Origin: Gemmatimonadetes bacterium 13_1_40CM_69_22
GTDB taxonomy: Bacteria > Gemmatimonadota > Gemmatimonadetes > Gemmatimonadales > GWC2-71-9
Assembly (NCBI GenBank): GCA_001917665.1
Contig: MNEL01000027.1
Location: forward strand, 18,866-82,865
Length of the DNA: 64,000 bases
Direction of reading: 5' to 3'
Below, in pieces: positions 13,655 to 29,538 of the stretch. The position numbers were made by a program, and so were the translations under genes. The notes beneath the pieces were generated by a model. That model made no database searches. It saw only the letters and a list, made by a program, of their open reading frames with translations, and was not told where the DNA came from. Each line of letters begins with the position of its first letter. The stretch's first letter is position 1.

Positions 13655-14245
13655 CTAGGGCATGGCGCGTGCCACGCCTAAGAAATTCTCCAGCAATCGC
13701 TTACCGTGCTCCGTCCCGATGGACTCGGGATGGAATTGCACACCGTAGATCGGGTACTTCCGGTGCTTCATGGCCATGATCTCGGCGTCTTTGGGCCGGT
13801 CCGCGCTCCAGGCGGTGATCACGAGATCCTTGGGGAGCGAGCCGGGCTCGACGACGAGCGAGTGGTACCGCATGCCGGTCACCGGGCTGGGAATGCCCTC
13901 GAACAGCTCGTCGGCGTCATGGAGTACCGGGCACGTCTTGCCGTGCATCAGCCGGTCGGCCCGCACCACGCGGCCACCGAACGCCTCGCCGATGGCCTGG
14001 TGGCCGAGGCAGACGCCGAGGACGGGGATCTTCCCTGCCAGGGCCCGTACCAGCGGCACCAGGATCCCCGCGTCGCGGGGCGTGCACGGTCCGGGCGAGA
14101 GCACCGCTGCGCGCGGCTTCAGCGCGAGCACCTCCTCGACCGTGAGCGCGTCGTTGCGGTACACGACCGGGTCCTGGCCCAACTCGCCGAACAGCTGGAC
14201 GAGGTTGTACGTGAAGGAGTCGTAGTTGTCGAGGACGAAGAGCAT
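13655..14245 (-). CDS. Glutamine amidotransferase component II of anthranilate / aminodeoxychorismate synthase
   Basis: MLFVLDNYDSFTYNLVQ...LSPGPCTP...GVCLGHQAIG...HPES: class-I GATase of the TrpG/PabA type. TrpG and PabA cannot be distinguished from sequence alone. Confidence 0.85.
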   Translation of the reverse strand: MLFVLDNYDSFTYNLVQLFGELGQDPVVYRNDALTVEEVLALKPRAAVLSPGPCTPRDAGILVPLVRALAGKIPVLGVCLGHQAIGEAFGGRVVRADRLMHGKTCPVLHDADELFEGIPSPVTGMRYHSLVVEPGSLPKDLVITAWSADRPKDAEIMAMKHRKYPIYGVQFHPESIGTEHGKRLLENFLGVARAMP

Positions 14246-14263
14246 GGGAGCTGTGCGCGCGGT

Positions 14264-15178
14264 TCACGCCCGCGGATGATACTGCCGGTGGACGCTGCGG
14301 AGGTAGTCCCGGTCCACGTGGGTGTAGAGCTGCGTCGTGGCGAGGTCGGCGTGCCCCAGCATCTCCTGAACCGCCCGCAGGTCCGCGCCGCCCTCGAGCA
14401 GATGGGTGGCGAAGCTGTGGCGCAGGGTATGGGGCGTGACCCGCTTGGTGAGGCCGGCGAGCTTCGCGGCGCGCTTGATGATCATCCAGGCGCCGACGCG
14501 CGACAGCGGCGTGCCACGCGCGTTGAGAAACAGGACGCCGCGCGTCTTCCCCCTGTCGAAGCGCGGCCGGATCTCGCGCGCGTACAGCGCCACGGCGCCG
14601 AGCGCGCGCCGCCCCACGGGGACGATGCGCTGTTTCGCGCCCTTGCCGAAAATCCGCGCCAGCCCGTCCTCGTACAGGAGATCCTGGGGCTTCATGCCCA
14701 CCACCTCCGAGACGCGCGCTCCCGTCGCGTACACGAACTCGAGCAACGCTCGATCCCGCATCGCGAGCGGCTCGTCGGTGTTGGGCGCCGCGAGCAGCCG
14801 CCCCACCTCGGCTACGGTCAGCACCGTCGGCAAGGTGCGCCAGTGCTTGGGTGATTCGAGCCGTTCGCTCGGGTCGCGAGTCGCGTGCCCTTCCCCGACC
14901 AGGAACCGGTAGTACGTGCGGATCGCCGAGATCTGGCGACGGATCGTGGCCGGGGCGAGGCCGAGGTCCTTCAGATCGTAGATGAACTCGCGCAGCTGTG
15001 CCGCGGTGATGGCGTCGGGGCGGCCGGCGCCCCGGGCTGCCGCGTGGGCAATGAGCCGCCCGATGTCGCGGACGTAGTTTCCGACCGTATTCGCACTGTT
15101 TCCGGCCTCCAGGGCGAGATAGTCACGGAACTGCTCAACTTGAAAGACGCGGTCGAGCTCGCTCACGCTCACAGCCAC
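14264..15178 (-). CDS. xerD: Tyrosine recombinase, XerD type
   Basis: Catalytic motifs ATGARVSE...HTLRHSFATHLLEGGADLRAVQEMLGHADLATTQLYTHV and a C-terminal ...YHPRA, as in E. coli XerD. GTG start. Confidence 0.85.
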   Translation of the reverse strand: MAVSVSELDRVFQVEQFRDYLALEAGNSANTVGNYVRDIGRLIAHAAARGAGRPDAITAAQLREFIYDLKDLGLAPATIRRQISAIRTYYRFLVGEGHATRDPSERLESPKHWRTLPTVLTVAEVGRLLAAPNTDEPLAMRDRALLEFVYATGARVSEVVGMKPQDLLYEDGLARIFGKGAKQRIVPVGRRALGAVALYAREIRPRFDRGKTRGVLFLNARGTPLSRVGAWMIIKRAAKLAGLTKRVTPHTLRHSFATHLLEGGADLRAVQEMLGHADLATTQLYTHVDRDYLRSVHRQYHPRA

Positions 15179-15666
15179 CGCCGCACCCGCGCCTGGTACG
15201 CCCGATACTCATCGCCGAACTTGCGCTCCAGGTATGCCTCCTCCCGCGCGACGACCCACCACCGGATCACGATGAGCACCACGGGCAACACCACGAGCGG
15301 CCACAGCGAGTTGATGAGCAGCGTGACGCCGACGTAGAGCGCTGCGAGCCCGAGGTACATCGGGTTGCGGGTGAAGCGGTAGGGGCCCCGCACTACGAGC
15401 GCCGTAGTGGGCTGGATGGGAACCGGACTCGTGCCGGCCCGGCGAAACAGCATGATGGCGCTCGCCGCGATCGCAACGCCCGCGCCGGCGAGGACCCAGC
15501 CGAGCAGTGTCCGGGCTCCGCCATCCACACCGATCGGCGCGGGTTTCAGTCGATCCAGCGCGTACCCGATGCCCAGCCCCAGCGCGTAGACGAAGGGCGG
15601 CGGAAACACGACTCCCGAACTGTCGGCGCTAGCGTCCGGCATGGTGGGGGCTCCGGTTGGCGTCAC
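15169..15666 (-). CDS. Isoprenylcysteine carboxyl methyltransferase (ICMT/PEMT) family membrane protein
   Basis: Polytopic membrane protein with GPYRFTRNPMYLG...REEAYLERKFGDEY motifs. GTG start at 15666. Confidence 0.8.
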   Translation of the reverse strand: MTPTGAPTMPDASADSSGVVFPPPFVYALGLGIGYALDRLKPAPIGVDGGARTLLGWVLAGAGVAIAASAIMLFRRAGTSPVPIQPTTALVVRGPYRFTRNPMYLGLAALYVGVTLLINSLWPLVVLPVVLIVIRWWVVAREEAYLERKFGDEYRAYQARVRRWL

Positions 15667-15672: not shown

Positions 15673-15706
15673 CTAACGCCTCAGGCGGCGCCAAATCCAT
15701 AGCCCG
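15673..15706. repeat. Left copy of a 34-bp perfect direct repeat (orphan copy of the dedA 3' end)
   Basis: CTAACGCCTCAGGCGGCGCCAAATCCATAGCCCG, identical to 29505-29538. It lies 6 nt upstream of the ICMT-family GTG start. Confidence 0.95.
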
Positions 15707-15787
15707 GGCGGCTTGCGGCCGCTGCGGTGTAGCTTAATCGTTCTTCGCGGCCAAGCTGCGCTTTTCACCCGCAGACCGGAAACACGC

Positions 15788-18418
15788 ATGAAACGGATGC
15801 TGCTCGCCGCCGCCGCTGTGCTGTGCCACCCGCTCACCAACCCTAGCGGGGTGCAGGCGCAGACGCCGGCCTACCAGAACCAGGAGCTCCCATTCGAGGT
15901 GCGGGTCAGCGACCTCGTCGGCCGCATGACGCTCGAGGAGAAGGTCTCGCAGATGAAGGATGTGGCCCCCGCGATCGAGCGGCTGGGCATCCCCGAGTAC
16001 AACTGGTGGAACGAAGCGCTGCACGGGGTCGCGCGCTCCGGCCTCGCGACGAGCTTTCCCCAGGCGATCGGCCTGGCCGCCACCTGGGACGACAGCCTCA
16101 TGTTCCGGATGGCGACCGTCATCTCCGACGAGGCCCGCGCCAAGCACCACGAGTACGTTCGCACCGGCAGCCACCAGCGGTATCAAGGTCTGACCTTTTG
16201 GTCCCCCAACATCAATCTGTTCCGCGACCCGCGGTGGGGCCGCGGCCAGGAGACCTATGGCGAGGATCCGTTCCTCACGGGCCGCCTCGCCGTGCAGTTC
16301 ATCCGCGGGCTGCAAGGTGACGACCCGAAGTACCTGAAGACCGTCGCCACCGTGAAGCACTTCGCCGTGCACAGCGGCCCGGAGCCGGAGCGCCACCAAT
16401 TCGACGCCGTGGTGAGCGAGCGGGACCTGCGCGAGAGCTACCTGCCCCACTTCGCGACCGGCATCCGCGAGGGCGGCGCGTACTCTCTGATGTGCGCCTA
16501 CAACCGCGTCGACGGCAAAGCCGCCTGCGGCAGCGACATGCTGCTCAAGGACATTCTCCGCGGCGAATGGGGCTTCCCCGGGTATGTCGTGTCCGACTGC
16601 GGCGCGATCGACGACATGTACCTCCGCCACAAGGTGGTGCACACCGCACCCGAGGCGGCCGCGCTGGGGGTGAAGACTGGCACCGACTTGGACTGCGGCC
16701 GGGTGTATCCCAACCTGATCGAGGCGGTGAAGCAGGGACTGATCACCGAGCACGAGATCGCTACGTCGGTGGAGCGGCTGTTCCTGGCGCGCTTCAAGCT
16801 CGGCATGTTCGACTCGCCCGAGCGGGTGCGCTGGGCACGGATCCCCTACAACGTCCTCGACCAGCCGGCGCATCGCGAGCTGGCGCGCCAGGCCGCGCGC
16901 GAGTCCATGGTGCTCCTCAAGAATGCCGGCGGCGTGCTGCCGTTGCACAAGACCCTCCGCACCATCGCGGTGATCGGGCCCAACGCCGACCAGTGGCGCA
17001 TGCTGCTCGGCAACTACAACGGGTTGCCGGCGGACCCCGTCACGCCGCTGCGCGGCATCCGTGAAGCCGTGGCGAAGGGAACGCGGGTGCTCTACGCCCG
17101 CGGCGCGGACCTCGCCGACGGCTTTCCGGTCCTCGACGTCGTACCGGCCGGCGTGCTGTTCACGTCCGAGCGTCGGCGCGGACTGCGTGTCGAGTACTTC
17201 GGGAGTCGGACGATGGCGGGCACGCCCCGCTTCAGCGGCACCGACACGACCCTCGACGCCAACTGGCGCGACGGGGCGCCGCGCCAGGACATGAATGTCG
17301 ACGATTTCGGGGTGCGCTGGACGGGTGCGCTGCGGCCGGCTGTGAGCGGAACGTACCGGCTCGGCCTGATCGGCACGGTCAAGTTTCAGCTCTTCCTCGA
17401 CGACAGTCTCGTGATCCGGTCGGTCTATCCGACACATGACGGCGAGTTCCCGGACCCGCGGCTCGTCCAGAGCGAGCCGCTCCAGCTCGAGGCAGGCCGC
17501 AGCTACCGGCTGCGGGTCGACGCCCAGGAGTCGTACGGCGAGGCGCAGCTCCAGCTCCTCTGGTCGGTGCCCCACGAGACGCTCGCGGGCGAGGCCGTGA
17601 AAGTCGCGCAGCAGGCGGACGCGGTCGTGCTGTTCCTCGGCCTGACGGCGCGCCTCGAGGGCGAGGAGATGCCGGTTCAGATCGAGGGGTTCCGCGGCGG
17701 CGATCGCACGCGGATCGACCTTCCGGCGCCCCAAGAGCAGCTGCTCGAGCGCATCGGCGCGGTCGGCAAGCCCACCGTGCTGGTGCTGCTCAGCGGCAGC
17801 GCGTTGGCAGTGAACTGGGCCCAGGACCACGTCCCGGCGATCGTGCAGGCGTGGTATCCAGGCCAGGCGGCTGGGACGGCGATCGCCGACGTGCTGTTCG
17901 GCGACTACAACCCGGGCGGTCGGCTGCCCGTCACGTTTTACCGTAGCGCGGACGACCTACCGTCCTTCGAGGACTACCGCATGGCGGGGCGGACGTATCG
18001 CTTCTTCAAGGGCACTCCGCTCTACCCCTTCGGCCATGGGCTCAGCTACACCACGTTCGGCTACAAAGACCTGCGCACCAGTGCCGACACCCTTCCAGCC
18101 GACGGCAGGATCACGGTGCGCGTGGACGTGACGAACAGCGGCAAGCGGGCCGGCGATGAGGTGGTGCAGCTGTACGTGCAACACCTCGGCTCGACCGTCG
18201 AGCGGTCGATCAGAGAGCTCAAGGGTTACAAGCGCGTTGCCTTGAAGCCCGGCGAGACCCGGACGGTGGAGCTGCCGCTCGCGGCAGCCTCGCTCGCCTA
18301 CTGGGATTCCGGGGGACATCACTGGGTCGTCGAGTCAGAGGCCGTTCGGATCCAGGTCGGGGCGTCTTCCACCGACATCCGGCTCGACAAGCCGATCACG
18401 GTGACGCGGGTGCGCTGA
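15788..18418 (+). CDS. Secreted glycoside hydrolase family 3 (beta-glucosidase/beta-xylosidase) with PA14 insertion
   Basis: Start taken at MKRMLLAAAAVLCHPL...VQAQT (signal peptide). GH3 motifs include NWWNEALHGV, FWSPNINLFRDPRWGRGQETYGEDP and GYVVSDCGAI. The PA14-like segment is DDFGVRWTGALRPAVSGTYRLGL. Confidence 0.9.
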   Translation: MKRMLLAAAAVLCHPLTNPSGVQAQTPAYQNQELPFEVRVSDLVGRMTLEEKVSQMKDVAPAIERLGIPEYNWWNEALHGVARSGLATSFPQAIGLAATWDDSLMFRMATVISDEARAKHHEYVRTGSHQRYQGLTFWSPNINLFRDPRWGRGQETYGEDPFLTGRLAVQFIRGLQGDDPKYLKTVATVKHFAVHSGPEPERHQFDAVVSERDLRESYLPHFATGIREGGAYSLMCAYNRVDGKAACGSDMLLKDILRGEWGFPGYVVSDCGAIDDMYLRHKVVHTAPEAAALGVKTGTDLDCGRVYPNLIEAVKQGLITEHEIATSVERLFLARFKLGMFDSPERVRWARIPYNVLDQPAHRELARQAARESMVLLKNAGGVLPLHKTLRTIAVIGPNADQWRMLLGNYNGLPADPVTPLRGIREAVAKGTRVLYARGADLADGFPVLDVVPAGVLFTSERRRGLRVEYFGSRTMAGTPRFSGTDTTLDANWRDGAPRQDMNVDDFGVRWTGALRPAVSGTYRLGLIGTVKFQLFLDDSLVIRSVYPTHDGEFPDPRLVQSEPLQLEAGRSYRLRVDAQESYGEAQLQLLWSVPHETLAGEAVKVAQQADAVVLFLGLTARLEGEEMPVQIEGFRGGDRTRIDLPAPQEQLLERIGAVGKPTVLVLLSGSALAVNWAQDHVPAIVQAWYPGQAAGTAIADVLFGDYNPGGRLPVTFYRSADDLPSFEDYRMAGRTYRFFKGTPLYPFGHGLSYTTFGYKDLRTSADTLPADGRITVRVDVTNSGKRAGDEVVQLYVQHLGSTVERSIRELKGYKRVALKPGETRTVELPLAAASLAYWDSGGHHWVVESEAVRIQVGASSTDIRLDKPITVTRVR

Positions 18419-18427
18419 GGCGCTCGC

Positions 18428-19942
18428 TCAGCCGACTCGAGGCTCGGTGGTCCGCGGGGGCCGGGAGGCGGGATAGGACGCTCGGAAGCGATCGTACAAC
18501 GCCTGGTAGGCCCGATGCGCCTGCGGGTCCGGGTACGCCGGCGGTGCCCGAGTCAGGGTGTGTCGCACCGCGGCCGCGAGATCGGGAAACGCGCCGGCTC
18601 CGACGGCAGCCAGGAGTGCAGCCCCGTAGGCCGGTCCCTCCTCGCGGTCGACCGTGCTGACCGGAAGCCCGAACACATCGGCCTGGAGCCGGCGGATGAG
18701 CGGGTTGCGGGCGCCGCCGCCGGTCAACAGGAGATGACTGGGTGCGAGCCCCAGCTCCTGGAGAATCGAGACGGAGTCGCGCAGCGCGAAGCAGACGCCC
18801 TCCAGCACGGCCCGGGTCAGGTGAGCGCGCGAATGCGCCAGGCTGAGGCCGACGAATGCGCCGCGCATGGCGGCATCCCGGTGCGGCGTCCGCTCCCCTT
18901 GCAGGTACGGGAGGAAGGTGACCCCGTCCGCGCCGGCGGGAATGGCCGCCGCCTCTTCGGTGAGCCGCGCGTCGGGCTGGTCCGCGCCCATTAGATCGCG
19001 GGCGAACTGATCGCGGTACCACGCGAAGGCGCCACCGGCCGAGAGCACCACTCCCATCACGTACCAGACCCCCGGCGCCACGTGACAGAAGGTGTGGGCG
19101 CGGAGGGCGGGATCCACTCGCGGCTCCGCCGTCGGCGCGAGCACGGTCCCAGACGTTCCCCAGCTGGCCACCGCCTCTCCGGGAGTGATCGCGCCGACCC
19201 CCGCCGCGCCGCAAGCGTTGTCCGCGCCGCCGCCTACTACCGGCGTCCCCGGCACGAGCCCCGTGAGCGCTGCGGCCGCCGGCGTGACGTGACCCAACAC
19301 CTCCGACGATCCCCCCACCTCGGGCACCAGCGAGACGGGCAGCCCGACGGCGTCCAGCATGTCACGACTCCACCGTAGCCGCGCGGGGTCGAACATCAGC
19401 GTGCCGGAGGCGTCGGACGGCTCCGTGCCGAGTGTTCCCGTGAGACGCAAGCGAACGAAATCTTTGGCGAGGAGAACCGTGGCCAACCGGGCAAATGCCG
19501 CCGGCTCTTGGTTCCTGAGCCACAGCACCTTGGGCAGCGTGAAGCCTTCCAGCGCTGGGTTGCACACCCAATCGCGCAGCCGCCCCTCACCGCCCACGCG
19601 CTGCGTGATCTCGGCGCATTCGGCGGTGGTTCGCCCGTCGCACCACAGCAGGGCTGGTCGGATCACCTCCGCGGCCCGGTCGAGAAAGACCGAGGAGTGC
19701 ATCTGTCCCGAGATCCCCACAGCCCGTACGCGCCGCGCGGAGCGTGGGGCGAGCAGTTGTCGGATGGACGCGAGGGACGCGTCCCACCAACTGTCCGGAT
19801 GCTGCTCCGCCCAGCCGGGGCGGGGGGTGCTCAGGGCGAGCGGCGTCGTCGCTGTGGCCTCCACCGCTCCCGCCTCGGTCACGAGGAGCGCCTTGACCCC
19901 GCTGGTGCCGACGTCCAGGCCCAGGAAGAGTGCATCGGCCAC
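18428..19942 (-). CDS. xylB: Xylulokinase (FGGY family)
   Basis: FLGLDVGTSGVKALL...GWAEQHPDSWW...GGGADNACGAAG. Start taken at GTG 19942, 2 nt after the xylA TAA. The track's ATG at 19993 would overlap xylA by 50 nt. Confidence 0.85.
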   Translation of the reverse strand: MADALFLGLDVGTSGVKALLVTEAGAVEATATTPLALSTPRPGWAEQHPDSWWDASLASIRQLLAPRSARRVRAVGISGQMHSSVFLDRAAEVIRPALLWCDGRTTAECAEITQRVGGEGRLRDWVCNPALEGFTLPKVLWLRNQEPAAFARLATVLLAKDFVRLRLTGTLGTEPSDASGTLMFDPARLRWSRDMLDAVGLPVSLVPEVGGSSEVLGHVTPAAAALTGLVPGTPVVGGGADNACGAAGVGAITPGEAVASWGTSGTVLAPTAEPRVDPALRAHTFCHVAPGVWYVMGVVLSAGGAFAWYRDQFARDLMGADQPDARLTEEAAAIPAGADGVTFLPYLQGERTPHRDAAMRGAFVGLSLAHSRAHLTRAVLEGVCFALRDSVSILQELGLAPSHLLLTGGGARNPLIRRLQADVFGLPVSTVDREEGPAYGAALLAAVGAGAFPDLAAAVRHTLTRAPPAYPDPQAHRAYQALYDRFRASYPASRPPRTTEPRVG

Positions 19943-19943
19943 G

Positions 19944-21140
19944 TTATCGCACGCCCAGCAACAGCTCCATGGTGAGCTGGTCGAGCCGCTCATAGGCGTA
20001 TCCCTGCCGTCGGATCGCCGGCAGGTCGAACGTCTCGGCCTGGAGCGCGCGCGCCCGCTCGGCGCTAAAGACGATGCGTTCCGCGGGCTTGTCTCCCCCG
20101 CCTCCCCCGCCCCGGGTCCGCAGCTCGGCCAGGAGCTGTTGGATCTCCGGATCCGCGTTGAAGCGCTCGGCCCTTTCCTTCAGGATCAGGTACGTGCGCA
20201 TGCTCCCGGAGGCGAAGTCCCAGACGCCGTCCTCGTCCTCCGTGCGGTAGGCGTGGCTGTCGAAGTGCCGCATCCCCGGCCAGCGCGCGTCTTCGAGCAG
20301 CTTCACGAGGAAGAATGCGCCCTTGGGGTCGTCGCTCCCGAACCGCAGGTCCTGATCGAAGCGTCCCAGTTTCTGCCCGTTCAGGTCGATGTGAAACAGC
20401 TTGCCCGCGTCCAGCGCCTGCGCCACGGCATGCGAGCAGTCGAGCCCCGCCATCTGCTCGTGCGCCACCTCGGGGTTGAGCCCGACCATTTCGGGGTGAT
20501 CGAGCGTGTAGATGAACGCCAGCATGTGGCCGGTCGTGGGGAGGAAGATGTCGCCGCGCGGCTCGTTCGGCTTCGCCTCCAGGGCGAATCTCATGTCGTA
20601 TCGCTGCGCGCGGACATAATCGCACAGGAAGTTGATGGCATCGCGGTACCATCCCAGCGCACTGCGCGCGTCCTTGGCGGCATTAGTCTCGACCCCCTCG
20701 CGCCCGCCCCAGAAGACGTACATGGAGGCGCCGAGCTCGACCCCCAGGTCGATCGCCGCCAAGGTCTTCTGCAGGGCGTACGCGCGCACCCGCGCGTCGT
20801 TGCTGGTGAACGCGCCGTCGCGGAAGGCGGGGTCGGAGAACAGGTTCGTCGTCGCCATCGGAACCTGGAGGCCGGTGGCTTGCAGCGCCGCCGTGAAGTC
20901 CCGCACGATCCGGTCGCGCTCGCTCGCGGCGGCATCCGAGGGCACGAGGTCGTTGTCGTGCAGGTTCACGCCGTAGGCCCCCAGCTCCGCGAGCTTGTGC
21001 ACGATGCGGGCGGGCGGGATCGGTGCGCGGACCGGCTCGCCGAAGGGATCGCGGCCCGGGTTCCCGACGGTCCAGAGGCCGAACGTGAAATGATGCTCCG
21101 GCCGCGGCGTGTAGGCGTCCTGCATGACTCTCCGGTTCAT
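19944..21140 (-). CDS. xylA: Xylose isomerase (short class I type)
   Basis: 398 aa: [17 protein letters not shown]...VFWGGREG...[18 protein letters not shown]...HIDLNGQ. Confidence 0.95.
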
Positions 21141-21193
21141 GAATAGGTCCCGTCGCAGGGGGCCGGCGGGCGGAGCTGTTCTCGTGTCCAGCG

Positions 21194-21222
21194 ATACTTC
21201 GTTTCCATTCGTACATTGTCAA
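21194..21222 (-). promoter_or_regulatory. Candidate sigma-70-type promoter for xylAB (TTGACA-N17-AAGTAT)
   Basis: On the minus strand, TTGACA lies at 21222-21217 and AAGTAT at 21199-21194 with a 17-nt spacer, about 55 nt upstream of the xylA ATG. Pattern match only. Confidence 0.25.
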
Positions 21223-21281
21223 GCCGTCGAATCGACGCCGCACCCGGCAGCGCCGCTCATTCCTTCAACCTGCTGGCGCCC

Positions 21282-22685
21282 ATGCACCCGTTGCTGATCC
21301 TGTTGGTGGGAATGACCACGATCCTCGCGGGGATCCTCGGGCTCCGGCTGAACGCTTTCCTCGCGCTGATCACCGCCGCGATTGTGGTCAGCTTGCTTGC
21401 CCCCGGTGAGCCCGCGGTGAAGATCGCTCGCGTGGCGGAGGGGTTCGGCCGCACGGCGGGCAGCATCGGGGTCGTCATCGCGCTGGCGGCGATCGCGGGT
21501 AAAGCGATGATGGAGAGTGGGGCGGCGGACCGGATCGTCACGGCGTTCCTCGCGTTGCTGGGTGTGCAGCGCGGCGCGACGGCCCTGTGCGCCACCGGCT
21601 ACGTATTGTCGATCCCGGTGTTCTTCGACACGGTCTTCTACCTGCTGGTCCCCTTGGCCCGCTCGATGTACGCGCGCACCAACCGCAATTATCTCAAGTA
21701 CATCATGGCCATTGCGGGGGGCGCGGCGGCGACACACACGCTGGTCCCGCCCACTCCCGGACCGTTAGCGGTGGCCGGTACGCTGGGCGTGGACCTGGGA
21801 ACCATGGTCCTGGTCGGCTTGGTCGTGGCGCTCCCTGCGGCGGGGGTCGGGCTGCTTTTCGCCGGATGGGTGGACCGCCGCATGCCCGTGGTGCCGCGAA
21901 CCCCCGCCGCCCCCGCCCTGCGCGGGAGTGACGCAGAGCCGGCGGCTACGCAGCCGTTTCCTGGTCTCGTTCCCTCACTCCTGCCCATCATCCTGCCCGT
22001 GCTGCTGATTTCGTCGAACACCGTGGTGCTGTCCATGACGGCACGTCCGGGGGCGCACCTCGCGACCTGGGCAGCCCTAGCTCCCTACACCGCGATCATC
22101 GGGAACGCCAACCTGGCGCTGCTCGTGTCCGCGGGCGTAGCCATGTGGGTGTACGCGCGGCAACGCGGCGCCAGCCGGGCGGCGCTCGCGGAAATGGTAG
22201 AGACGTCCCTGATGAGTGCGGGCGTGATCATCCTGATCACGGCGGCAGGGGGGGCGTTCGGGGCGACGCTGCAAGCCGCGCAGATCGGGCCCGTGATCGA
22301 GCGGGCTTTCGTGGGGCAGGCGGCCGGGTCGGGGACGGGCTCCGGCCTGATCTTTCTGTTCCTCGGGTTCGGGGTCGCGAGCCTGATGAAAATCGCCCAG
22401 GGCTCGAGCACCGTCGCGATGATCACGACCGCGGCGATGCTCGCGGCGATGCTGCCCGCGAGCAGCGGCGGTCTGCCGTTTCACACCGTGTATGTCGCGA
22501 CCGCGATCGCCAGCGGGTCGCTCGTCGGAACGTGGATGAACGACAGTGGGTTCTGGGTGTTTTCGAAGATGGGAGGAGTGACGGAGCTCGAGACCCTCAA
22601 GTCGTGGACTCCCCTGCTGGCGGTGGTCGGCGTTACCGGCATGGTGACGACCGTCGCGCTCGCGCTGCTCGTGCCGCTGCGCTAG
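21282..22685 (+). CDS. GntP-family (gluconate/sugar-acid:H+) permease
   Basis: Start taken at MHPLLILLVGMTTILAGILGLRLNAFLALI. It is a polytopic protein with a typical GntP N-terminus and ...GSSTVAMITTA... near the C-terminus. Confidence 0.85.
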   Translation: MHPLLILLVGMTTILAGILGLRLNAFLALITAAIVVSLLAPGEPAVKIARVAEGFGRTAGSIGVVIALAAIAGKAMMESGAADRIVTAFLALLGVQRGATALCATGYVLSIPVFFDTVFYLLVPLARSMYARTNRNYLKYIMAIAGGAAATHTLVPPTPGPLAVAGTLGVDLGTMVLVGLVVALPAAGVGLLFAGWVDRRMPVVPRTPAAPALRGSDAEPAATQPFPGLVPSLLPIILPVLLISSNTVVLSMTARPGAHLATWAALAPYTAIIGNANLALLVSAGVAMWVYARQRGASRAALAEMVETSLMSAGVIILITAAGGAFGATLQAAQIGPVIERAFVGQAAGSGTGSGLIFLFLGFGVASLMKIAQGSSTVAMITTAAMLAAMLPASSGGLPFHTVYVATAIASGSLVGTWMNDSGFWVFSKMGGVTELETLKSWTPLLAVVGVTGMVTTVALALLVPLR

Positions 22686-22744
22686 CAACCGGCTCAAAGT
22701 CGATTGCGGGATGAGCTGGAGAGTTTGCACAACCGGCTACCGAT

Positions 22745-23527
22745 CTACGACTTCGGTGCCGCAGGTTTGGCCGCGTAGATGAACTCGTAGTAGTCGCGCA
22801 TGGTCAGGTCCGCGGCTGCCTCCTTGTCGGCGATCACGATCGCATCACGGTGCAGCTGGATGGCACTTGCCGTCACCATGCTGGTGACCGGTCCCTCGAC
22901 GGCTTGGGCAATCGCCTTGGCCTTCGCCTTCCCGCTCGCAACCAGGACCAGCTTGCGCGCATCGAGGATGGTCCCGACGCCCATGGTGATCGCATAGACC
23001 GGCACACCCTCTCGGTGCTCGAAGAACCGGGCGTTGTCGTCGATGGTCTGTTTGGACAGCGTCTTGAGCCGCGTCCGCGAGCTCAGGGAGCTCCCCGGTT
23101 CGTTGAATGCGATGTGGCCGTCGGAGCCGATGCCCAGGATCTGCAGGTCGATACCGCCGCATTCCGCAATTCGCTCCTCGTACCATTGGCAGAAGGCGGG
23201 GTAGTTGCTGGTCGTGCCCGAGGGAATATTGATGTTGTGCCGCGGGATGTTCACGTGCTGGAAGAAGTGCTCGTGCATGAAGTAGTGGTAGCTCTGGGGG
23301 TGATTCACGGGCAGGCCGACATATTCGTCGAGGTTGAACGTCGTGACACGAGAGAAGTCGAGTTGCGCCTCTTTGTGCAGCCGCACCAACTCCTGATACA
23401 GGCCGAGTGGCGTGGACCCGGTCGCCATGCCGAGCACGGCATTCGGCTTGGTGTTGAGCACCTCTGCGACGATCTGCGCCGCGGTCTTGCTCATCTGCTC
23501 GTAGTCTCGCTGAATGATGACTTCCAT
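22745..23527 (-). CDS. nagB: Glucosamine-6-phosphate deaminase
   Basis: Start taken at MEVIIQRDYEQMS. Motifs: GMATGSTP...FNLDEYVGLP...GIGSDGHIAFNEPGS. Confidence 0.85.
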   Translation of the reverse strand: MEVIIQRDYEQMSKTAAQIVAEVLNTKPNAVLGMATGSTPLGLYQELVRLHKEAQLDFSRVTTFNLDEYVGLPVNHPQSYHYFMHEHFFQHVNIPRHNINIPSGTTSNYPAFCQWYEERIAECGGIDLQILGIGSDGHIAFNEPGSSLSSRTRLKTLSKQTIDDNARFFEHREGVPVYAITMGVGTILDARKLVLVASGKAKAKAIAQAVEGPVTSMVTASAIQLHRDAIVIADKEAAADLTMRDYYEFIYAAKPAAPKS

Positions 23528-23532
23528 GAGCC

Positions 23533-25020
23533 TCAGCCCGCCTCTTCCCATCGTCTGGCGCGGTCGAGCGCCTTCCGCCAGCCGGTCTCGAGCTGCTTGC
23601 GTTGTGCGGGTTTCATCGCGTGCGTGAAGCGGCGATCCACCTGCCACTGCGCCGCGATCTGCTTTAGGCCTTTCCAATAGCCGACGGCCAATCCCGCGAG
23701 ATACGCCGCGCCGAGTGCCGTGGTCTCGGTGACCTTCGGCCGCACCACGGGAACTCCCAGCAGGTGCGACTGAAATTGCATCAGCAGGTTGTTCGCAGAC
23801 GCGCCGCCATCCACGCGCAGCTCCTTCAGCTTGATCTTTGCGTCAGCCTCCATCGCCCGCAGCACATCAGCCACCTGAAACGCGATCCCCTCCAACGCCG
23901 CGCGCGCGATATGCGCCGCTGTCGTGCCGCGCGTGACGCCCGCTACGAGGCCGCGAGCGTATTGATCCCAGTGCGGCGCGCCGAGTCCGGCGAATGCGGG
24001 GACTAGGTACACTCCCTGCGTATCATCGACCTGCGAGGCCAGGGCTTCGATTTCCGATGACGACTTGATGATGCCGAGTCCGTCGCGCAGCCATTGCACC
24101 ACCGCACCGGCGATGAAAATGCTGCCTTCCAGCGCGTACTCGGTCCGGCTCCCGATGCGCCACGCCACCGTCGTCAGGAGATTGTTCTTGGAGGCAATCG
24201 GCTTGGTGCCGGTGTTCATGAGCATGAAACAACCGGTGCCGTAGGTGTTCTTCACCATTCCGGGCTGGGTGCACGCCTGGCCGAACAGCGCCGCCTGCTG
24301 GTCGCCCGCAATGCCGGCTATCGGCACCGCGCCGCCGAACAGCACCGTTTCGCCATACACCTCGCTCGACGAGCACACCGCCGGCAACATCGAGCGCGGC
24401 ACCCCAAACACCTCCAGCAGTTCGTCGTCCCAATCACCGGTCCGCAGATTGAACAGCATCGTGCGCGACGCGTTGCTCGGATCGGTCACGTGCACGCGGC
24501 CGCCCGTCAAGTTCCACACCAGCCACGAGTCCACGGTGCCGAACGCCAGTTTGCCTGCCTTCGCTTTGGCGCGCGCGCGGGGGACGTTGCGAAGCATCCA
24601 CTCCAGTTTCGTGCCGGAGAAATACGCGTCCACCACCAGGCCGGTCTTACGCTTGATCAAGGGCGCGAGGCCGCGGGCCTTCAGCCGGTCGCACGCGGCC
24701 GCGGTGCGGCGATCCTGCCAGACGATGGCGTGCGATACGGGCTCGCCCGTCTCGCGATCCCAAACCACGGTTGTTTCCCGCTGATTCGTGATCCCGATGG
24801 CGGCGATGTCGGCCGCAGTCAGGCCGGCCTTGGCGATCGCTTCGGTCGCCGTGTGCAGCTGCGTGGCCCAAATCTCCGTCGCATCGTGTTCCACCCAGCC
24901 GGGCTTGGGAAAGATCTGACGAAACTCCTTCTGAGCCGACGCGACAACGCTCCCGCTATGATCAAACACGATGGCGCGCGAGCTCGTCGTGCCCTGATCG
25001 AGGGCCAGGATGTACTTCAT
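23533..25020 (-). CDS. glpK: Glycerol kinase
   Basis: Start taken at [20 protein letters not shown]. Motifs: GWVEHD...[11 protein letters not shown]...[10 protein letters not shown]. The ATG overlaps the glpF stop (ATGA). Confidence 0.95.
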
Positions 25021-25747
25021 GCCGGCCACCACGTCTTGTACAGCAAGGCCGCGATCAAGCCGCCGATGATTGGTCCCGCCACCGGTATCCACGCATAGCT
25101 CCAATCCGAATGCCCCTTGCCCGCGATCGGCAGGAGCGCGTGCGCGAGCCGGGGACCGAAGTCGCGCGCCGGGTTGATCGCGTAGCCGGTCGGCCCGCCC
25201 AACGAAAGGCCGATGGCCCACACGAGGACACCGACCAGCCAAGGGCCGAATCCCGCGTCCCAACCGTGCACAGGGTTGAGGTTCTTCGGTGTCAGGATGG
25301 CCAGCACACCCAGCACCAGCACGCTGGTGCCGGCGATCTCGGTGAATAGATTCGCGGGCGAGTTGCGAATGGCGGGGGCGGTGCAAAAGACGGCCAGCTT
25401 CGCAGCTGGCTCTCCGTGACGGGCCAGTGTGGCAAGTAAGTGAGCCAAACTACGCCCGCACCGAGGAATGCGCCGAGCATCTGGGCGGTGATGTAGAGGG
25501 GCACCGAGGCCCACGCGAACTTGCCGATGGAGGCCAGGCCGATGGTCACTGCAGGGTTGAGATGCGCGCCGCTGAAGGTGCCGACGGCATAGACCGCGAC
25601 CGTCACGCCGAATGCCCAGCCGGCGGTGATAACGATCCACCCGCCGCTCTGGCCCTTGGTTCTATTGAGCACCACGTTCGCGACCACGCCATCGCCCAGG
25701 ATGACCAACAGCATGGTGCCGAGCAGTTCTGCAAGGAAAGGTGACAT
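25017..25747 (-). pseudogene. glpF: Glycerol uptake facilitator (aquaporin family) split by an apparent 1-nt frameshift
   Basis: The N-terminal half, containing HLNPAVT (NPA box 1), is in one frame (25747 down to ~25420). The C-terminal half, containing [11 protein letters not shown] (NPA box 2), is in another frame ending at 25017. The total span is 731 nt, which is not a multiple of 3. The frame switch is inferred near 25405-25425. Confidence 0.7.
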
Positions 25748-25854
25748 AGGGTTGAATGGTGCGGCGAAGCTACGAAGGCCACAGCGCGTTGTCCATACGT
25801 GCGAATCGTTGTGGACGTCGCCTCGGGAGGCGCACGCGCCTCAACTCCCCTTCA

Positions 25855-25980
25855 CCAGCCTTTCAAGCGCTCAGGGCCGAGGGCGGCGGCGATTTCGGGG
25901 TGGAGGACCTTGACTGCGACGGGACGGTGCTGCTTCGGGTCGATCGCGAGATAGACTACACCCTCCGCAACGATATGGCA
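25855..25980 (-). pseudogene. Relic of a Hanks-type Ser/Thr protein kinase N-lobe (about 42 codons, stops on both sides)
   Basis: The minus-strand translation reads CHIVAEGVVYLAIDPKQHRPVAVKVLHPEIAAALGPERLKGW*. It matches the end of the kinase Gly-loop (GxVY), the VAVKVL catalytic-Lys strand, and the PE..A..G.ERF motif common in bacterial STKs. A TAG lies immediately upstream and a TGA immediately after. Confidence 0.4.
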
Positions 25981-26007
25981 CTACTCGGCATGACCTCAGG
26001 AGCTACT

Positions 26008-26394
26008 ATGCCCCACGACATGGGAACTTTCCGCGTAGACGTCGAGATCGAGAACCCCGCCCGCCCGGGCGAGCGACGAGCCCTCAAATCGGTGCTGGTG
26101 GACACCGGCGCGGAATTGTCGTGGGTTCCGGCCGAGATTCTCGAATCGTTGGGCGTCGAGCGCAACAACAAGTGGCGCTTCCGCCAGGCCGACGGAACGA
26201 TTCTGGAGCGGTGGACTGGCGGTGTGTCCGTCTACGTGGTCGGGAAGCGGGCGGCGGACGAAGTAGTGTTCGGAGAGCCCGGCGACCTCGTATTGTTGGG
26301 CTCACGCACGCTGGAAGGGCTCAACTTCCGGATTGAGCCCGTCACCAAACAATTGGTGGACGCAGGCCCGGCGCCGGCCGCCGCCGCGGCGTAA
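26008..26394 (+). CDS. Retropepsin-like (clan AA) aspartic protease, single-domain
   Basis: 128 aa from ATG 26008, with AGGAG 7 nt upstream. It has the LVDTGA catalytic-Asp motif and ...[10 protein letters not shown]... Alternative upstream in-frame starts exist at 25975 and 25756. Confidence 0.65.
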
Positions 26395-26500
26395 GACAGC
26401 AAGCGGCTACCGCCGCTCGTCGTGCTCGTGCTGCTCGTGCCCCTGCGCTGGACGCGGACGCTGCTGGCGATTCGGCGCCCGTCGCCGCAACGTTGTGGGC

Positions 26501-28501
26501 ATGCACGGGAAGCTCGATGCGCCACCGCTCGATGCGGTACTCGGTTCGGCCAGCGCGGTCGCCGCCGGCCGCCTCGCCGGTGACGGGCCCGCGGGCCAGC
26601 TCCCCCTCACTCCCGACATGCTGCGCGAGGAGCCGAGCGGCAACGTATTTGGCCTGACGCAGAACGTGGGCATGGGCTGGAGCCCCGCGGCCCTCGAGGG
26701 CCCGCAGTACGTCATCGTCAGCACCCACGGCGGCCTGCGGAGCGAGGACGGGAGCCCGGTGGCGCTGGGATACCACACCGGGCACTGGGAGATTGGGCTC
26801 CTGGTCCGGGCGGCAGCCGAGACGCTGCGCGCCGCGGGGGCGATCCCCTTTGCGGCGTACTGTAGCGACCCCTGCGACGGCCGCACCCAGGGGACCACGG
26901 GGATGTTCGATAGCCTGCCCTATCGCAACGACGCGGCCGTCGTCATGCGCCGGTTGATCCGTTCGCTCCCCACCGCGTCGGGCGTGATGGGTGTCGCCAC
27001 GTGCGACAAGGGCCTGCCCGCGACGATGCTCGCGCTCGCCGGCTGCGGGGAGCTGCCCGGCGTAATCGTCCCCGGCGGCGTCACGCTGCCGGCGGTCGGG
27101 AGCGAGGACGCGGGCCAGGTGCAGAGCCTGGGCGCGCGCTTCGCCCGAGATCTCGTGAGCCTCGACTACGCGGCCACGATGGGTTGCCGCGCCTGCGGCT
27201 CGGCCGGCGGGGGCTGCCAGTTCTTGGGGACCGCGGCGACGTCTCAGGTGGTGGCGGAGGCGCTCGGCCTGGCACTACCGCACAGCGCGCTGGCGCCGTC
27301 CGGTGAGCCGGTGTGGCTCGAACTCGGCGCCCGCTCGGCCTTCGCCCTGGTGCGGCTGCACGCGCTCGGGATTCCGATCAAGCGGATCCTGACCCAGCAC
27401 GCGCTCGAGAACGCGATGCTGGTGCACGCGGCGTTCGGCGGGTCGACCAACCTGCTGCTGCACATCCCGGCGATTGCGCATGCGGCGGGGCTCCGGCCGC
27501 CCACGCTGGACGACTGGATCCGCGTGAATCGGGCCACGCCGCGCCTGGTCGATGCCCTGCCGAACGGCCCGCGCGGTCATCCTACCGTGCAGGTCTTCAT
27601 GGCCGGCGGTGTGCCCGAGGTGATGCTGCACCTGCGCCGCATGGGCCTGCTGCACGGCGACGTGCTCACGGCGACGGGCGACACCCTCGATGCGACGCTC
27701 GACTGGTGGGAGGCGAGCGAGCGGCGACGCGCGGCGCGAGCGCGGCTCGCCGCCGCCGCGGCGGTCGCTCCCGACGACGTCATCATGGGTCCCGACGCCG
27801 CGCGCGGGGCGGGCCTGACCAGCACCGTCGTTTTCCCGGTGGGGAACTTGGCACCCGAAGGGGCGGTGATCAAAGCCACCGCGCTCGACCCCGCCGTCGT
27901 GGGAGACGATCAGATATACCGCCACCGCGGCCCTGCGCGCGTGTTCGTCGACGAGCGGGACGCGATCCGGGCCGTGAAAGGAGCGACCGAGCGGCCGATC
28001 CGACCGGGAGACGTGATCGTGCTGATCGGCACGGGGCCATCGGGCACCGGGATGCAGGAGACCGCGCAGATCACCACCGCGCTCCGGTATCTCCCCTGGG
28101 GGAAGCACGTCGCGCTCCTCACCGACGGCCGTTTTTCCGGGTTCTCAAGCGGCGCGTGCGTGGGCCACATCGGACCCGAGGCATTGCACGGCGGCCCGAT
28201 CGGCCGGGTGCGCGACGACGACCTGATCGAGATCGTGATCGACCGCGGCACGCTCGCGGGTTCGGTCGACCTCGTGGGAGCGGCCGGGCAGCCGCTCGAC
28301 GCGGCCGCATGCGCCGCGCTGCTGGGGCAACGGAGCCCGCACCCCGGGCTCGCGCCCCACCCCGCCCTGCCCGCGGACACGCGCCTGTGGGCGGCGCTCC
28401 AGCGGGCGAGCGGCGGCACCTGGGCGGGCTGCGTGTACGACGTCGATCGCATCGTGGCGGCGCTCGAGGCCGGTCTCCACCTCACCAAGGAGCGAACGTG
28501 A
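26501..28501 (+). CDS. D-xylonate dehydratase, YjhG/YagF branch of the IlvD/Edd family
   Basis: Start taken at MHGKLD. Long colinear identity by eye with E. coli YjhG: [131 protein letters not shown]. Confidence 0.85.
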
Positions 28502-29508
28502 TCTCGGTGCAACGCTGGATTCGTGTCGTGGCAATGCTCATGGCGTTCGCGCCCGAGCTGCTGCTCGCGCAGGATCCGTCCATCGTGGCCCCTGGCGCCA
28601 AACTCGAGAGGTTATTCGGCGACGGGTTCTTCACCGAGGGTCCGGCGCAGGCGCCCGACGGGTCGGTCTATTTCTCGGACATCACCTTCGTCAAGGCATC
28701 CGGTTATCAGGCAGGCCACATCTGGCGCTGGGATCCGCGGACCGGGACGACCACGGTGTTCCGCTCGCCGAGCGGGATGTCCAACGGGATCGTGTTCGAC
28801 GAGCAAGACCGCATGGTCGTCGCGGAGGGGGCGGGGTTCGGCGGCCGCCGCATCACCCGGACCGATATGAAGACCGGCAAGGCCGTGATCCTCGCCGGGC
28901 TCTACAACGGACGACCCTTCAATTCTCCGAACGATCTCGTGCTCGATGCGCGCGGGCGCATCTACTTCACCGATCCGCGCTACTCGGGTTACGAGCCGGT
29001 CGAGCAGCCGGTGCAGGGGGTGTACCGCATCGATCCCGACGGACGCGTCTCGCTGGTTGCAGCAAATGCCGGCAAGCCGAACGGGATTGCCGTGTCTCCC
29101 GATCAGGCCACGCTGTACGTCGCCTCCATCGACAACGGATCGTTCGACGAGGATTTGCCGCCGGAGACGCCGGTTACGCCTGGACGCATGGCGCTGCTCG
29201 CGTACGACCTGGCGCCGGACGGCTCGGCGAAATTCCGCCGCACCGTGGTGGATTTCTCGCCGGGCGTCGGGCCCGATGGGATCAGCGTGGACCGGGACGG
29301 CAACATCTATTGCGCGATTCCGGGCGAGCGACCGGGCATCCATGTCTACTCTCCGGCCGGGAAGGAGCTGGCCTATATCCCGACGCCGGACCCCCCGACG
29401 AATGTGAAGTTCGGCCGCGGGGCGGATAAGCAGACGTTGTTCATTACGGCGCGGAAAAGTCTGTACCGGATTCGCGTGGAGCGGAGCGGGTACCACCCAG
29501 GCTCCTAA
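28498..29508 (+). CDS. Secreted SMP-30/gluconolactonase/LRE-family lactonase
   Basis: GTG 28498 overlaps the dehydratase stop (GTGA). Signal-peptide-like N-terminus (M)[25 protein letters not shown]. Family motifs: [60 protein letters not shown]. Confidence 0.8.
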
Positions 29509-29538
29509 CGCCTCAGGCGGCGCCAAATCCATAGCCCG
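29505..29538. repeat. Right copy of the 34-bp perfect direct repeat (functional 3' end of dedA; also contains the lactonase stop codon)
   Basis: Identical to 15673-15706. On the minus strand it encodes ...[10 protein letters not shown] plus TAG. Confidence 0.95.

What the first reader, a model, noticed from the sequence alone, without database searches (positions are those of the whole stretch)
15673..29538. Perfect 34-bp direct repeats bracket a 13.8-kb sugar-catabolism insertion at the 3' end of dedA
CTAACGCCTCAGGCGGCGCCAAATCCATAGCCCG occurs identically at 15673-15706 and 29505-29538. The right copy is the last 10 codons plus TAG of dedA (...[10 protein letters not shown], minus strand). 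The left copy is an orphan lying 6 nt upstream of the GTG start of the ICMT-family gene. Removing one copy and the intervening DNA would recreate a tight dedA-TAG-N6-GTG junction, like the other junctions of this minus-strand run. Everything between the copies is mixed-strand and carbohydrate-related, and it carries decay marks (a frameshifted glpF and a kinase relic). That is the footprint of integration into a gene 3' end with duplication of the target. Yet no integrase, transposase or tRNA lies inside; the only recombinase (XerD-type) sits about 0.5 kb outside the left repeat. How the block arrived is therefore unexplained.
Basis: partly seen in the sequence, partly recalled or inferred. 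Interest (0 to 1): 0.8.

Follow-up and report, generated by a model that had tools for sequence, protein, structure and literature searches.

The report
Old sugar-gene insertion scar at dedA
The repeat is real and marks an old insertion of xylose/xylonate-use genes into a conserved operon of soil Gemmatimonadales. The inserted block is inherited, patchwork and no longer mobile, so it is an ordinary genomic islet, not a new kind of mobile element.

Summary
The 34-mer occurs exactly twice in the window, at the stated coordinates, and chance does not explain it. The right copy is the true end of dedA. The left copy is an orphan upstream of the ICMT-xerD pair.

Relatives confirm an insertion. In 31 Gemmatimonadetes loci dedA is followed directly by (ICMT-)xerD. 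Only the closest relatives carry sugar genes between them, and four other assemblies representing three distinct sequences (L016, L002, L004=L017) keep the same orphan.

The duplication is therefore old, predates speciation, and was probably 36 bp originally. The 13.8 kb did not arrive as one unit:
- The core is gntP, a xylonate dehydratase and a lactonase.
- xylAB, GH3 and nagB-glpK-glpF' are presence/absence variants among relatives (later gains or losses). Only nagB-glpK-glpF' shows signs of recent gain.
- The nagB-glpK-glpF'-asp part is flanked by its own 32-nt duplication of the gntP tail.

Overall composition equals the flanks; only the nagB-glpK-glpF' part is atypical. No integrase appears in any variant, and xerD is the ancestral housekeeping gene.

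In three loci from at least two lineages the same module lies on the other side of xerD. I favour integrase-independent, recombination-based insertion (about 0.5) over a classical integrase that was later lost (about 0.3). This is a new member of a known kind, and interest is low to moderate.

The parts
29505..29538 (-). Native 3' end of dedA (last 10 codons plus TAG); right copy of the 34-nt repeat. The lactonase stop TAA (29506-29508) overlaps the dedA stop.
15673..15706 (-). Orphan copy of the dedA tail. Together with the following 'aatcgc' it reproduces the ancestral dedA-to-ICMT junction seen in empty-site relatives.
15707..15743 (.). 37-nt island-end segment next to the orphan. Shared with L002 and L016, absent in L004 and L017.
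15788..18418 (+). GH3 glycoside hydrolase with PA14 and Fn3-like domains. Present in the window and L016, absent in L002, so it is a later gain or a loss.
18428..19993 (-). xylB xylulokinase (TIGR01312, 536 bits).
19944..21140 (-). xylA xylose isomerase, Arthrobacter type (TIGR02631, 573 bits).
21282..22685 (+). GntP-family permease, a core module gene. Its last 32 nt (22652-22683) are the left copy of a second direct repeat.
22686..25987 (-). Nested addition of nagB (22745-23527), glpK (23533-25020) and frameshifted glpF (about 25017-25711). GC is 0.64 and the tetranucleotide profile is an outlier. Absent from all fetched loci outside the window's own species (same-species contig L097 carries it).
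26008..26394 (+). Small clan-AA (retropepsin-like) aspartic protease ORF. Shared with L002 only.
26418..26449 (+). Orphan copy (29 of 32 identical) of the gntP tail, upstream of the dehydratase start.
26501..28501 (+). YjhG/YagF-family D-xylonate dehydratase (TIGR03432, 1051 bits), a core module gene.
28498..29508 (+). SMP-30/gluconolactonase-family lactonase, a core module gene. Its C-terminus GYHPGS* is native.
15169..15642 (-). PEMT/ICMT-family methyltransferase, the ancestral neighbour of dedA, now separated from it.
14264..15178 (-). Housekeeping xerD (TIGR02225, 344.9 bits against a cutoff of 329.6). It overlaps ICMT by 10 nt. It belongs to the conserved flank, not to the island.

Best explanation
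**What it is.** This is a fixed, non-mobile catabolic islet. It sits in a gene-order hot spot next to xerD in one subclade of soil Gemmatimonadales.

**Ancestral state (shown).** The tight, same-strand order purE-ispF-dedA-(ICMT)-xerD-trpG/pabA-type GATase is conserved deep in the phylum.

**The founding event.** In the ancestor of the window's subclade, a gntP / xylonate dehydratase / lactonase module was inserted exactly at the dedA stop codon. The last 34-36 bp of dedA were duplicated. One copy still ends dedA. The orphan copy stayed attached to ICMT-xerD.

**Later history (shown).** The islet was then remodelled. The asp ORF lies between gntP and the dehydratase, flanked by a 32-nt duplication of the gntP tail. 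nagB-glpK-glpF' is nested next to asp. xylAB and GH3 lie at the far end. Relatives show deletions and replacements.

**How the founding event most likely happened (inferred).** I think host recombination, not an island-encoded integrase, made the insertion. Two routes fit:
- A single crossover of a circularised fragment on about 35 bp of homology.
- A homology-anchored illegitimate join or template switch that re-entered the recipient about 35 nt upstream of the point where it had left.

Either route leaves the insert flanked by a duplicated target.

**Why the orphan persists (hypothesis, not tested).** It may carry expression signals for ICMT-xerD. Once the insertion cut the pair off from the dedA operon, those signals would have been needed.
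For: **Insertion and its age.**
- 31 loci have dedA directly followed by (ICMT-)xerD.
- Islet-bearing loci are those whose flanking genes are closest to the window.
- The orphan is present in the window, L016 (1 mismatch), L004 and L017 (1) and L002 (4). In each it is followed by the same 'aatcgc' as in the empty sites L006 and L007.
- In relatives both copies are followed by AA, so the ancestral duplication was probably 36 bp.

**Mosaic growth.** Relatives carry subsets of the block. Only the nagB-glpK-glpF' part is compositionally atypical.

**Against an integrase.**
- None is present in about 10 variant islets.
- There is no non-coding room for a relic.
- Homology between the window and L101 ends exactly at the lactonase stop, and the module end shares CTA with the dedA end, a 3-nt microhomology.
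- A second tail duplication of similar length lies at an unrelated sequence inside the islet, in a position that in L002 holds only about 0.45 kb.
- A third insert at the same gntP/edd junction, in L004, has only a 5-nt duplication.
- The 34-mer contains no perfect inverted arms (5-7 nt, 5-9 nt apart), unlike a recombinase core site.

**The module moves without mobility genes.** It lies beyond xerD, with the dedA-ICMT junction intact, in L099, L100 and L104. It lies in unrelated contexts in L101 and L105.

**Precedent.** Single crossover of a circle carrying a short homologous segment duplicates that segment. Illegitimate joins with 3-10 bp microhomology are documented (PMC3240628).
Against: - A direct repeat of 34-36 bp covering a gene's 3' end is the classic signature of tyrosine-integrase islands. 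Early loss of the integrase would leave exactly this picture.
- In L004 and L017 a deletion ends within 0-2 nt of the orphan's inner edge. That hints the edge is a preferred recombination point or a functional boundary.
- The orphan is 33/34 conserved between the window and L004, while the adjacent spacer has diverged strongly. This is compatible with a site function.
- Recombination on only about 35 bp is inefficient.
- The single-crossover route needs a donor that already carried a dedA tail next to the lactonase gene. No such donor was found.
- The tight stop-codon overlap could equally result from later trimming of spacer DNA, which weakens the microhomology argument.
- The promoter idea has no support from the consensus scan.
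Confidence: 0.5

Rival explanations
1. This was a classical integrative island. A circular element carrying its own tyrosine (or serine) integrase and an attP that mimics the dedA tail integrated into the 3' end of dedA. The integrase and excisionase were then deleted before the present species diverged.
For: - The direct repeat of 34-36 bp restores the target gene's 3' end, and empty sites exist in relatives.
- The variable, deletion-prone end of the islet is the one next to the orphan, where an integrase would typically sit.
- The deletion endpoint in L004 and L017 coincides with the orphan's edge.
- The orphan is well conserved.
Against: - No integrase or fragment appears in any of about 10 variants.
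- Non-coding gaps are shorter than 300 nt.
- The 34-mer has no perfect-arm dyad (5-7 nt arms, 5-9 nt apart).
- The module boundary coincides with the lactonase stop and shares a 3-nt microhomology.
- A second, unrelated 32-nt tail duplication inside the islet would need a second lost integrase.
- The same module occurs in three other contexts without the 34-mer.
Confidence: 0.3
2. The event was a local rearrangement, not an import. An ancestor carried the module just beyond xerD, as in L099 and L104. A tandem duplication followed by losses, or an excision and reinsertion, then swapped the order of the ICMT-xerD segment and the module. This swap carried a 34-36-nt piece of the dedA tail along with ICMT-xerD.
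For: - The same module (SGL 86-87% in both; EDD 89% and GntP 85% in L099) lies on the other side of xerD, in the same orientation relative to dedA, in L099, L100 and L104.
- Module divergence is similar to that of the flanking core genes.
Against: - The xerD-GATase junction in the window (18 nt) looks ancestral. It is just as tight in deep relatives, so ICMT-xerD probably never moved.
- The route needs at least three steps, including a precise restoration of that junction.
- Genes next to the module in L099 (AKR, GFO/IDH, SDR) have no counterpart in the window-type islets.
Confidence: 0.1
3. The resident XerC/XerD recombinase, whose xerD gene lies 0.5 kb away, captured the DNA at a pseudo-dif site. 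This would resemble elements that exploit Xer recombination, or an integron-like platform.
For: - xerD is adjacent to the site.
- Both intergenic junctions flanking xerD are variable in relatives.
Against: - The gene is the conserved housekeeping xerD, present in all empty-site genomes.
- The 34-mer has no dif-like architecture, and the window has no match to the conserved dif core.
- The other inserts next to xerD carry no flanking repeats.
- The cassettes are multi-gene and mixed-strand, with no attC-like sites.
Confidence: 0.04
4. The repeat is a chance match, a dispersed motif or an assembly artefact.
For: Only a 64-kb window, not the whole genome, could be scanned.
Against: - 0 of 100 shuffles gave a match.
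- In 105 fetched loci the motif occurs only at the two homologous positions.
- Both junctions are reproduced in independent assemblies.
Confidence: 0.01

Closest known systems
Genomic islands or islets integrated at the 3' end of a gene and flanked by direct repeats, tyrosine-integrase type
   Same: - A direct repeat of 34-36 bp duplicates the target gene's 3' end.
- Empty sites exist in relatives.
- The cargo is accessory catabolic genes.
   Different: - There is no integrase, excisionase or relic in any variant.
- No perfect-arm dyad was found in the repeat.
- Composition matches the host.
- The island is old, mosaic and vertically inherited.
Helicobacter pylori cag pathogenicity island (from my own knowledge: Censini et al. 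1996 and Akopyants et al. 1998 describe 31-bp direct repeats at the 3' end of glr/murI and no integrase). PMC10896142 confirms only its location next to glr.
   Same: - The island sits beside the end of a housekeeping gene.
- It is flanked by a direct repeat of about 30 bp derived from that gene's end.
- It carries no mobility genes, and its integration mechanism is unknown.
- Empty-site alleles exist.
   Different: - The cargo here is sugar catabolism, not a secretion system.
- It is much smaller.
- It shows nested additions, one with its own tail duplication.
Chromosomal hot spots of gene gain and loss between conserved core genes that lack recognisable mobile elements (from my own knowledge: Oliveira, Touchon, Cury and Rocha 2017)
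   Same: - Different relatives hold different gene sets at the same core-gene junctions (dedA|ICMT-xerD, xerD|GATase, gntP|edd).
- No mobile-element genes are present.
- Identity patterns are mosaic, which suggests allele exchange by homologous recombination.
   Different: A clear duplication scar of the founding insertion survives here. Such hot spots are not usually reported with one.
Homology-facilitated illegitimate recombination, and single-crossover integration on short homology (PMC3240628)
   Same: - The structure is an insert flanked by a duplicated target segment.
- There is a 3-nt microhomology at the module/dedA junction.
- No dedicated recombinase is needed.
   Different: - Duplications documented in that study were 109-950 bp, not about 35 bp.
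- The process was not observed here and is only inferred from the scar.
E. coli yjhG-yjhH-yjhF and yagE-yagF xylonate clusters (from my own knowledge: these lie in prophage-like regions)
   Same: A YjhG/YagF-family xylonate dehydratase (1051 bits) is paired with a GntP-family permease in a horizontally variable region.
   Different: - No aldolase gene lies in the block.
- The dehydratase is paired with a lactonase and with xylAB.
- There is no prophage context.

Membership tests
Integrase-mediated integrative genomic island | Direct repeats (att core) at both ends, one copy overlapping the target gene's end | tested here: met
   The 34-nt repeat is perfect, was probably 36 nt ancestrally, and covers the dedA stop.
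Integrase-mediated integrative genomic island | A site-specific recombinase gene inside the element, usually next to one att site | tested here: not met
   Pfam and NCBIfam scans of all ORFs in the block and in the variant islets of relatives found none. Gaps are shorter than 300 nt.
Integrase-mediated integrative genomic island | Empty target site in related genomes | tested here: met
   31 loci have dedA directly followed by (ICMT-)xerD.
Integrase-mediated integrative genomic island | Core-type inverted binding arms around an overlap region within the att core | tested here: inconclusive
   No perfect arms of 5-7 nt separated by 5-9 nt were found in the repeat plus or minus 12 nt. Imperfect arms cannot be excluded.
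Integrase-mediated integrative genomic island | Excision to a circle, or repeat-to-repeat deletion variants in the population | not testable with these tools
   No reads were available. Same-species contigs L096-L098 all show the occupied right junction.
Xer-exploiting integrative element (IMEX) or pdif module | Flanking sites are dif-like: about 28 bp, with XerC and XerD arms around a 6-8-bp spacer | tested here: not met
   The 34-mer has no perfect-arm dyad. The window has no match to CATAAT-N6-TTATG within 2 mismatches. The true dif of this clade is unknown.
Xer-exploiting integrative element (IMEX) or pdif module | Insertion at the chromosomal dif site in the terminus region | not tested
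   The terminus and dif of these MAGs were not located. The GC-skew profile of the window shows no clear switch at the site.
Integron | IntI-type integrase with adjacent attI, and an array of mostly promoterless cassettes each ending in attC | tested here: not met
   The recombinase scores as XerD (344.9 bits). It is far below the integron-integrase cutoffs (133.6 against 265). The cargo is multi-gene and mixed-strand with no repeated attC-like element.
Transposon or insertion sequence | Transposase gene, terminal inverted repeats and a short fixed-length target duplication | tested here: not met
   There is no transposase. No terminal inverted repeats lie at the block ends. The duplication is 34-36 nt.
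MGE-free chromosomal hot spot / genomic islet | The same core-gene junction holds different accessory genes in different relatives, without mobility genes | tested here: met
   Contents at dedA|ICMT-xerD vary across loci:
- window
- L002
- L004
- L005 and L103
- L003
- L009
- L015
- L016

The xerD|GATase and gntP|edd junctions vary as well.

The most novel reading that the evidence does not exclude
Soil Gemmatimonadales may have a so-far undescribed, integrase-independent way of inserting DNA at the 3' ends of tightly packed genes. It would leave target duplications of about 32-36 nt. Two such scars, at unrelated sequences, lie inside this one islet. The process could be linked to the neighbouring xerD, both of whose flanking junctions are variable. 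The orphan tail might be kept as a reusable entry site or as the promoter of ICMT-xerD.
Probability: 0.07. Interest if true: 0.7.

Novelty: new member of a known kind. Interest (0 to 1): 0.3.

Why it matters
This is a clean, datable example from an almost uncultured soil phylum. It shows how a catabolic trait (xylan sugar, xylose and xylonate use) was wired into a conserved housekeeping operon and then grew by nested additions.

The founding scar has survived across species. The case illustrates that long flanking repeats do not by themselves show that an element is recent or mobile.

It also gives two testable junctions for asking whether such scars need an integrase at all.

Tried and rejected
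- **dif-like site:** none found in the window.
- **Rfam families, 13-31 kb at E up to 0.1:** none found.
- **Consensus promoter or terminator around the orphan:** none found.
- **tRNA genes:** none found.
- **Integrases in the unexplained stretches of relatives:** Pfam scans found only a molybdopterin oxidoreductase, an AraC regulator, PAP2, an SDR fragment, TfoX, GNAT and similar.
- **Gene-tail duplications as a general signature:** I tested more than 50 other insert junctions in the fetched loci. Only the dedA one was found.
- **Link between the islet's far end and the L099-type island:** I looked through shared genes and found none.
not found.
- **The palindromic 28-mer from L002 and L006:** absent from the window.
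- **Open-access source for the 31-bp repeats of the cag island:** not found, so that comparison rests on my own knowledge.
- **Whole-genome scan for further copies of the 34-mer:** not possible.


Full report
**1. Observation**

The 34-mer CTAACGCCTCAGGCGGCGCCAAATCCATAGCCCG occurs exactly twice in the 64-kb window, at 15673-15706 and 29505-29538. No third copy appears even with 3 mismatches allowed, and none of 100 shuffles gave a match. Identity ends sharply at both edges.

The right copy is the last ten codons plus TAG of a VTT/DedA-family gene on the minus strand, reading ...[10 protein letters not shown]. The left copy is non-coding. It lies 6 nt from a GTG (15666) of a PEMT/ICMT-family ORF. 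The likelier start of that ORF is the ATG at 15642, which is preceded by GGAG.

**2. Gene content** (Pfam; NCBIfam; public gene calls)

| Region | Genes |
|---|---|
| Left flank, minus strand | GATase (13655-14245), xerD (14264-15178; TIGR02225 344.9 bits against a cutoff of 329.6), ICMT (15169-15642) |
| Between the copies | GH3 glycosidase (+), xylB (-), xylA (-), gntP (+), nagB (-), glpK (-), frameshifted glpF (-), small retropepsin-like ORF (+), YjhG/YagF-type D-xylonate dehydratase (+, 1051 bits), SMP-30 lactonase (+) |
| Right flank, minus strand | dedA, ispF, purE and menaquinone (futalosine-pathway) genes |

- In glpF, the two NPA-containing halves lie in different frames. The same split appears in an independent assembly.
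- The lactonase stop TAA overlaps the dedA stop.
- There is no tRNA, integrase or transposase inside the block.
- All non-coding stretches in the block are shorter than 300 nt.
Both FGGY kinases are full length, and tblastn found no extra fragment.

**3. Relatives**

The dedA protein retrieved 15 loci from Gemmatimonadales and Gemmatimonadetes MAGs. The XerD protein retrieved 80 metagenomic loci.

tblastn mapping of the window's proteins shows that the order purE-ispF-dedA-(ICMT)-xerD-GATase is conserved deep in the phylum, down to XerD identity of about 53%.
- 31 loci have dedA directly followed by ICMT-xerD or by xerD.
- The xerD-GATase spacing is 4-50 nt in many deep relatives. It is 18-21 nt in the window, L002 and L016.

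Both junctions flanking the insertion site are therefore ancestral.

**4. The islet is old and mosaic**

Only loci whose flanking genes are closest to the window carry sugar genes between dedA and ICMT/xerD, and the contents differ:

| Locus | Content between dedA and ICMT/xerD |
|---|---|
| L002 | lactonase, dehydratase, asp, gntP, xylA, xylB (8 kb; no GH3, no nagB-glpK-glpF') |
| L016 | dehydratase, gntP, xylA, xylB, GH3 |
| L004, L017 | lactonase, dehydratase, a PAP2 gene, gntP |
| L005, L103 | lactonase, dehydratase, gntP, then an SDR in place of ICMT |
| L015 | lactonase reduced to a relic of about 110 nt |
| L003 | lactonase replaced by an oxidoreductase and an AraC regulator |

The orphan dedA tail is present next to ICMT in L016 (1 mismatch), L004 and L017 (1) and L002 (4). 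It is always followed by the 'aatcgc' seen in empty sites. In the relatives both copies are followed by AA, so the original duplication was probably 36 nt.

The duplication therefore predates the divergence of several species-level lineages. The perfect identity in the window means that neither copy has changed from the inferred ancestral sequence.

Composition agrees with this picture:
- The block as a whole has GC 0.682, against 0.684 and 0.693 for the flanks, and its tetranucleotide profile is ordinary.
- Only the 22.5-26.5 kb part (nagB-glpK-glpF'-asp) has GC 0.64 and is a tetranucleotide outlier.

**5. A second scar inside the islet**

gntP and the dehydratase are adjacent in L005, L015, L016 and L099: the gntP stop, 10 nt, then ATG. 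In the window they are separated by 3.8 kb (nagB, glpK, glpF', asp).

This insert is flanked by a 32-nt direct repeat, 29 of 32 identical, at 22652-22683 and 26418-26449. The repeat is a duplication of the gntP tail.

Other lineages differ at the same junction:
- L002 holds only the asp ORF there. It is flanked by two copies of a 34-nt unit containing a perfect 28-nt palindrome.
- L004 has a different insert (PAP2) with only a 5-nt duplication.

More than 50 other insert junctions in the fetched loci show no tail duplication.

**6. The module in other places**

Lactonase homologues at 83-88% identity were traced to their contigs.
- **L099, L100 and L104:** gntP, dehydratase and lactonase lie on the other side of xerD (lactonase> <AKR or PD40 <xerD <ICMT <dedA). 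The dedA-ICMT junction is intact.
- **L101:** a gntP 3' remnant, the dehydratase and the lactonase lie in an unrelated neighbourhood.
- **L105:** gntP and the lactonase flank a different gene.

The lactonase C-terminus GYHPGS* is the same in the window and in L101. Homology between them ends exactly at the stop codon. So the right repeat copy is native dedA, and the module starts at the dedA stop, sharing only CTA with it.

**7. Mechanism**

*Shown:*
- An ancestral tight junction was split.
- 34-36 nt of the target were duplicated.
- The insert lacks mobility genes in every variant.
- The islet later gained and lost genes.
- The same module occupies several sites.

*Inferred:* how the first insertion happened. 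I favour an integrase-independent, host-recombination event (confidence about 0.5). The possible routes are a single crossover of a circular fragment on about 35 bp of homology, or a homology-anchored illegitimate join or template switch that re-entered about 35 nt upstream. Both leave a duplicated target. Microhomology joins and crossover-generated duplications are documented (PMC3240628).

Arguments for this view:
- No integrase and no room for a relic.
- The CTA microhomology at the module end.
- A second tail duplication at an unrelated sequence around a very small insert.
- No perfect-arm dyad in the 34-mer.

Arguments against:
- This is the textbook signature of an integrase island.
- The deletion endpoint in L004 and L017 coincides with the orphan's edge.
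- The orphan is 33/34 conserved where the neighbouring spacer has diverged.

The classical integrase-then-loss model keeps about 0.3. A local swap from the 'beyond xerD' arrangement keeps about 0.1; it is weakened by the ancestral-looking xerD-GATase junction and by the lack of shared neighbouring genes. Xer-mediated capture keeps about 0.04: the gene is the housekeeping xerD and no dif-like site exists. Chance or artefact is effectively excluded.

**8. Why the orphan persists (hypothesis only)**

The orphan plus the next three bases read ...TGGATTT-N17-TAGAAT, 27 nt before the ICMT ATG. All six substitutions seen in orphans fall outside these two elements. That would happen by chance about 6% of the time (my estimate, not a tool result).

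After the insertion, ICMT-xerD needed its own promoter. However, the consensus scan did not call a promoter here, and promoters of this phylum are not characterised.

**9. Comparison with known systems and verdict**

The closest known kinds are:
- integrase-type islands at gene 3' ends, where the defining integrase was tested for and not found;
- the integrase-less, repeat-flanked cag island of H. pylori (the repeat detail is from my own knowledge);
- mobile-element-free hot spots between core genes.

I file this as a new member of a known kind. It is a domesticated catabolic islet with a surviving insertion scar. Interest is low to moderate. The unusual points are the age of the scar, the two nested tail duplications of similar length, and the concentration of variability around xerD.

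Noticed in passing
window 22652-22683 and 26418-26449: A second direct repeat (32 nt, 29 of 32 identical) duplicates the gntP tail. It flanks nagB-glpK-glpF'-asp, which separates gntP from the xylonate dehydratase. These two genes are adjacent in relatives.
   Followed up: yes
L002 13630-13657 and 14091-14118; L006 4134-4161: A perfect 28-nt palindrome, GTAGGGGCGCAGCATGCTGCGCCCCTAC, looks like a REP-like dispersed element. Two copies flank the asp ORF in L002, and one lies between ispF and dedA in L006. It is absent from the window.
   Followed up: partly
xerD|GATase junction (window 14246-14263) compared with L007, L008, L010, L011 and L041: The junction on the other side of xerD is a second variable spot. 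It is 18 nt in the window but holds 0.7-6.8 kb of unrelated DNA in many relatives. In L099, L100 and L104 it holds the gntP-dehydratase-lactonase module itself.
   Followed up: partly
window about 21186-21223: A conserved element, TCCAGCGATACTTCGTTTCCATTCGTACATTGTCAAGC, lies upstream of gntP. It is kept in islets at both positions (window, L002, L005, L016, L099). It is probably the module's promoter or operator.
   Followed up: no
window 43000-48500 and 49000-56000: The stretch at 43-48.5 kb has GC 0.74-0.75 and is a tetranucleotide outlier. The stretch at 49-56 kb has strongly positive AT skew (0.13-0.29, mostly above 0.19).
   Followed up: no
L001 (end) and L015 (start), MAG SMAG_U11559: One contig ends 12 nt after the dedA stop. 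Another starts inside the dedA tail and continues into a lactonase relic. This suggests an assembly break or strain variation exactly at this junction.
   Followed up: partly
L004 about 13670-15137 (GntP-sense orientation): A PAP2-family gene is inserted between gntP and the dehydratase with only a 5-nt (TAGCG) duplication. This is an independent insertion at the same junction as in the window.
   Followed up: partly
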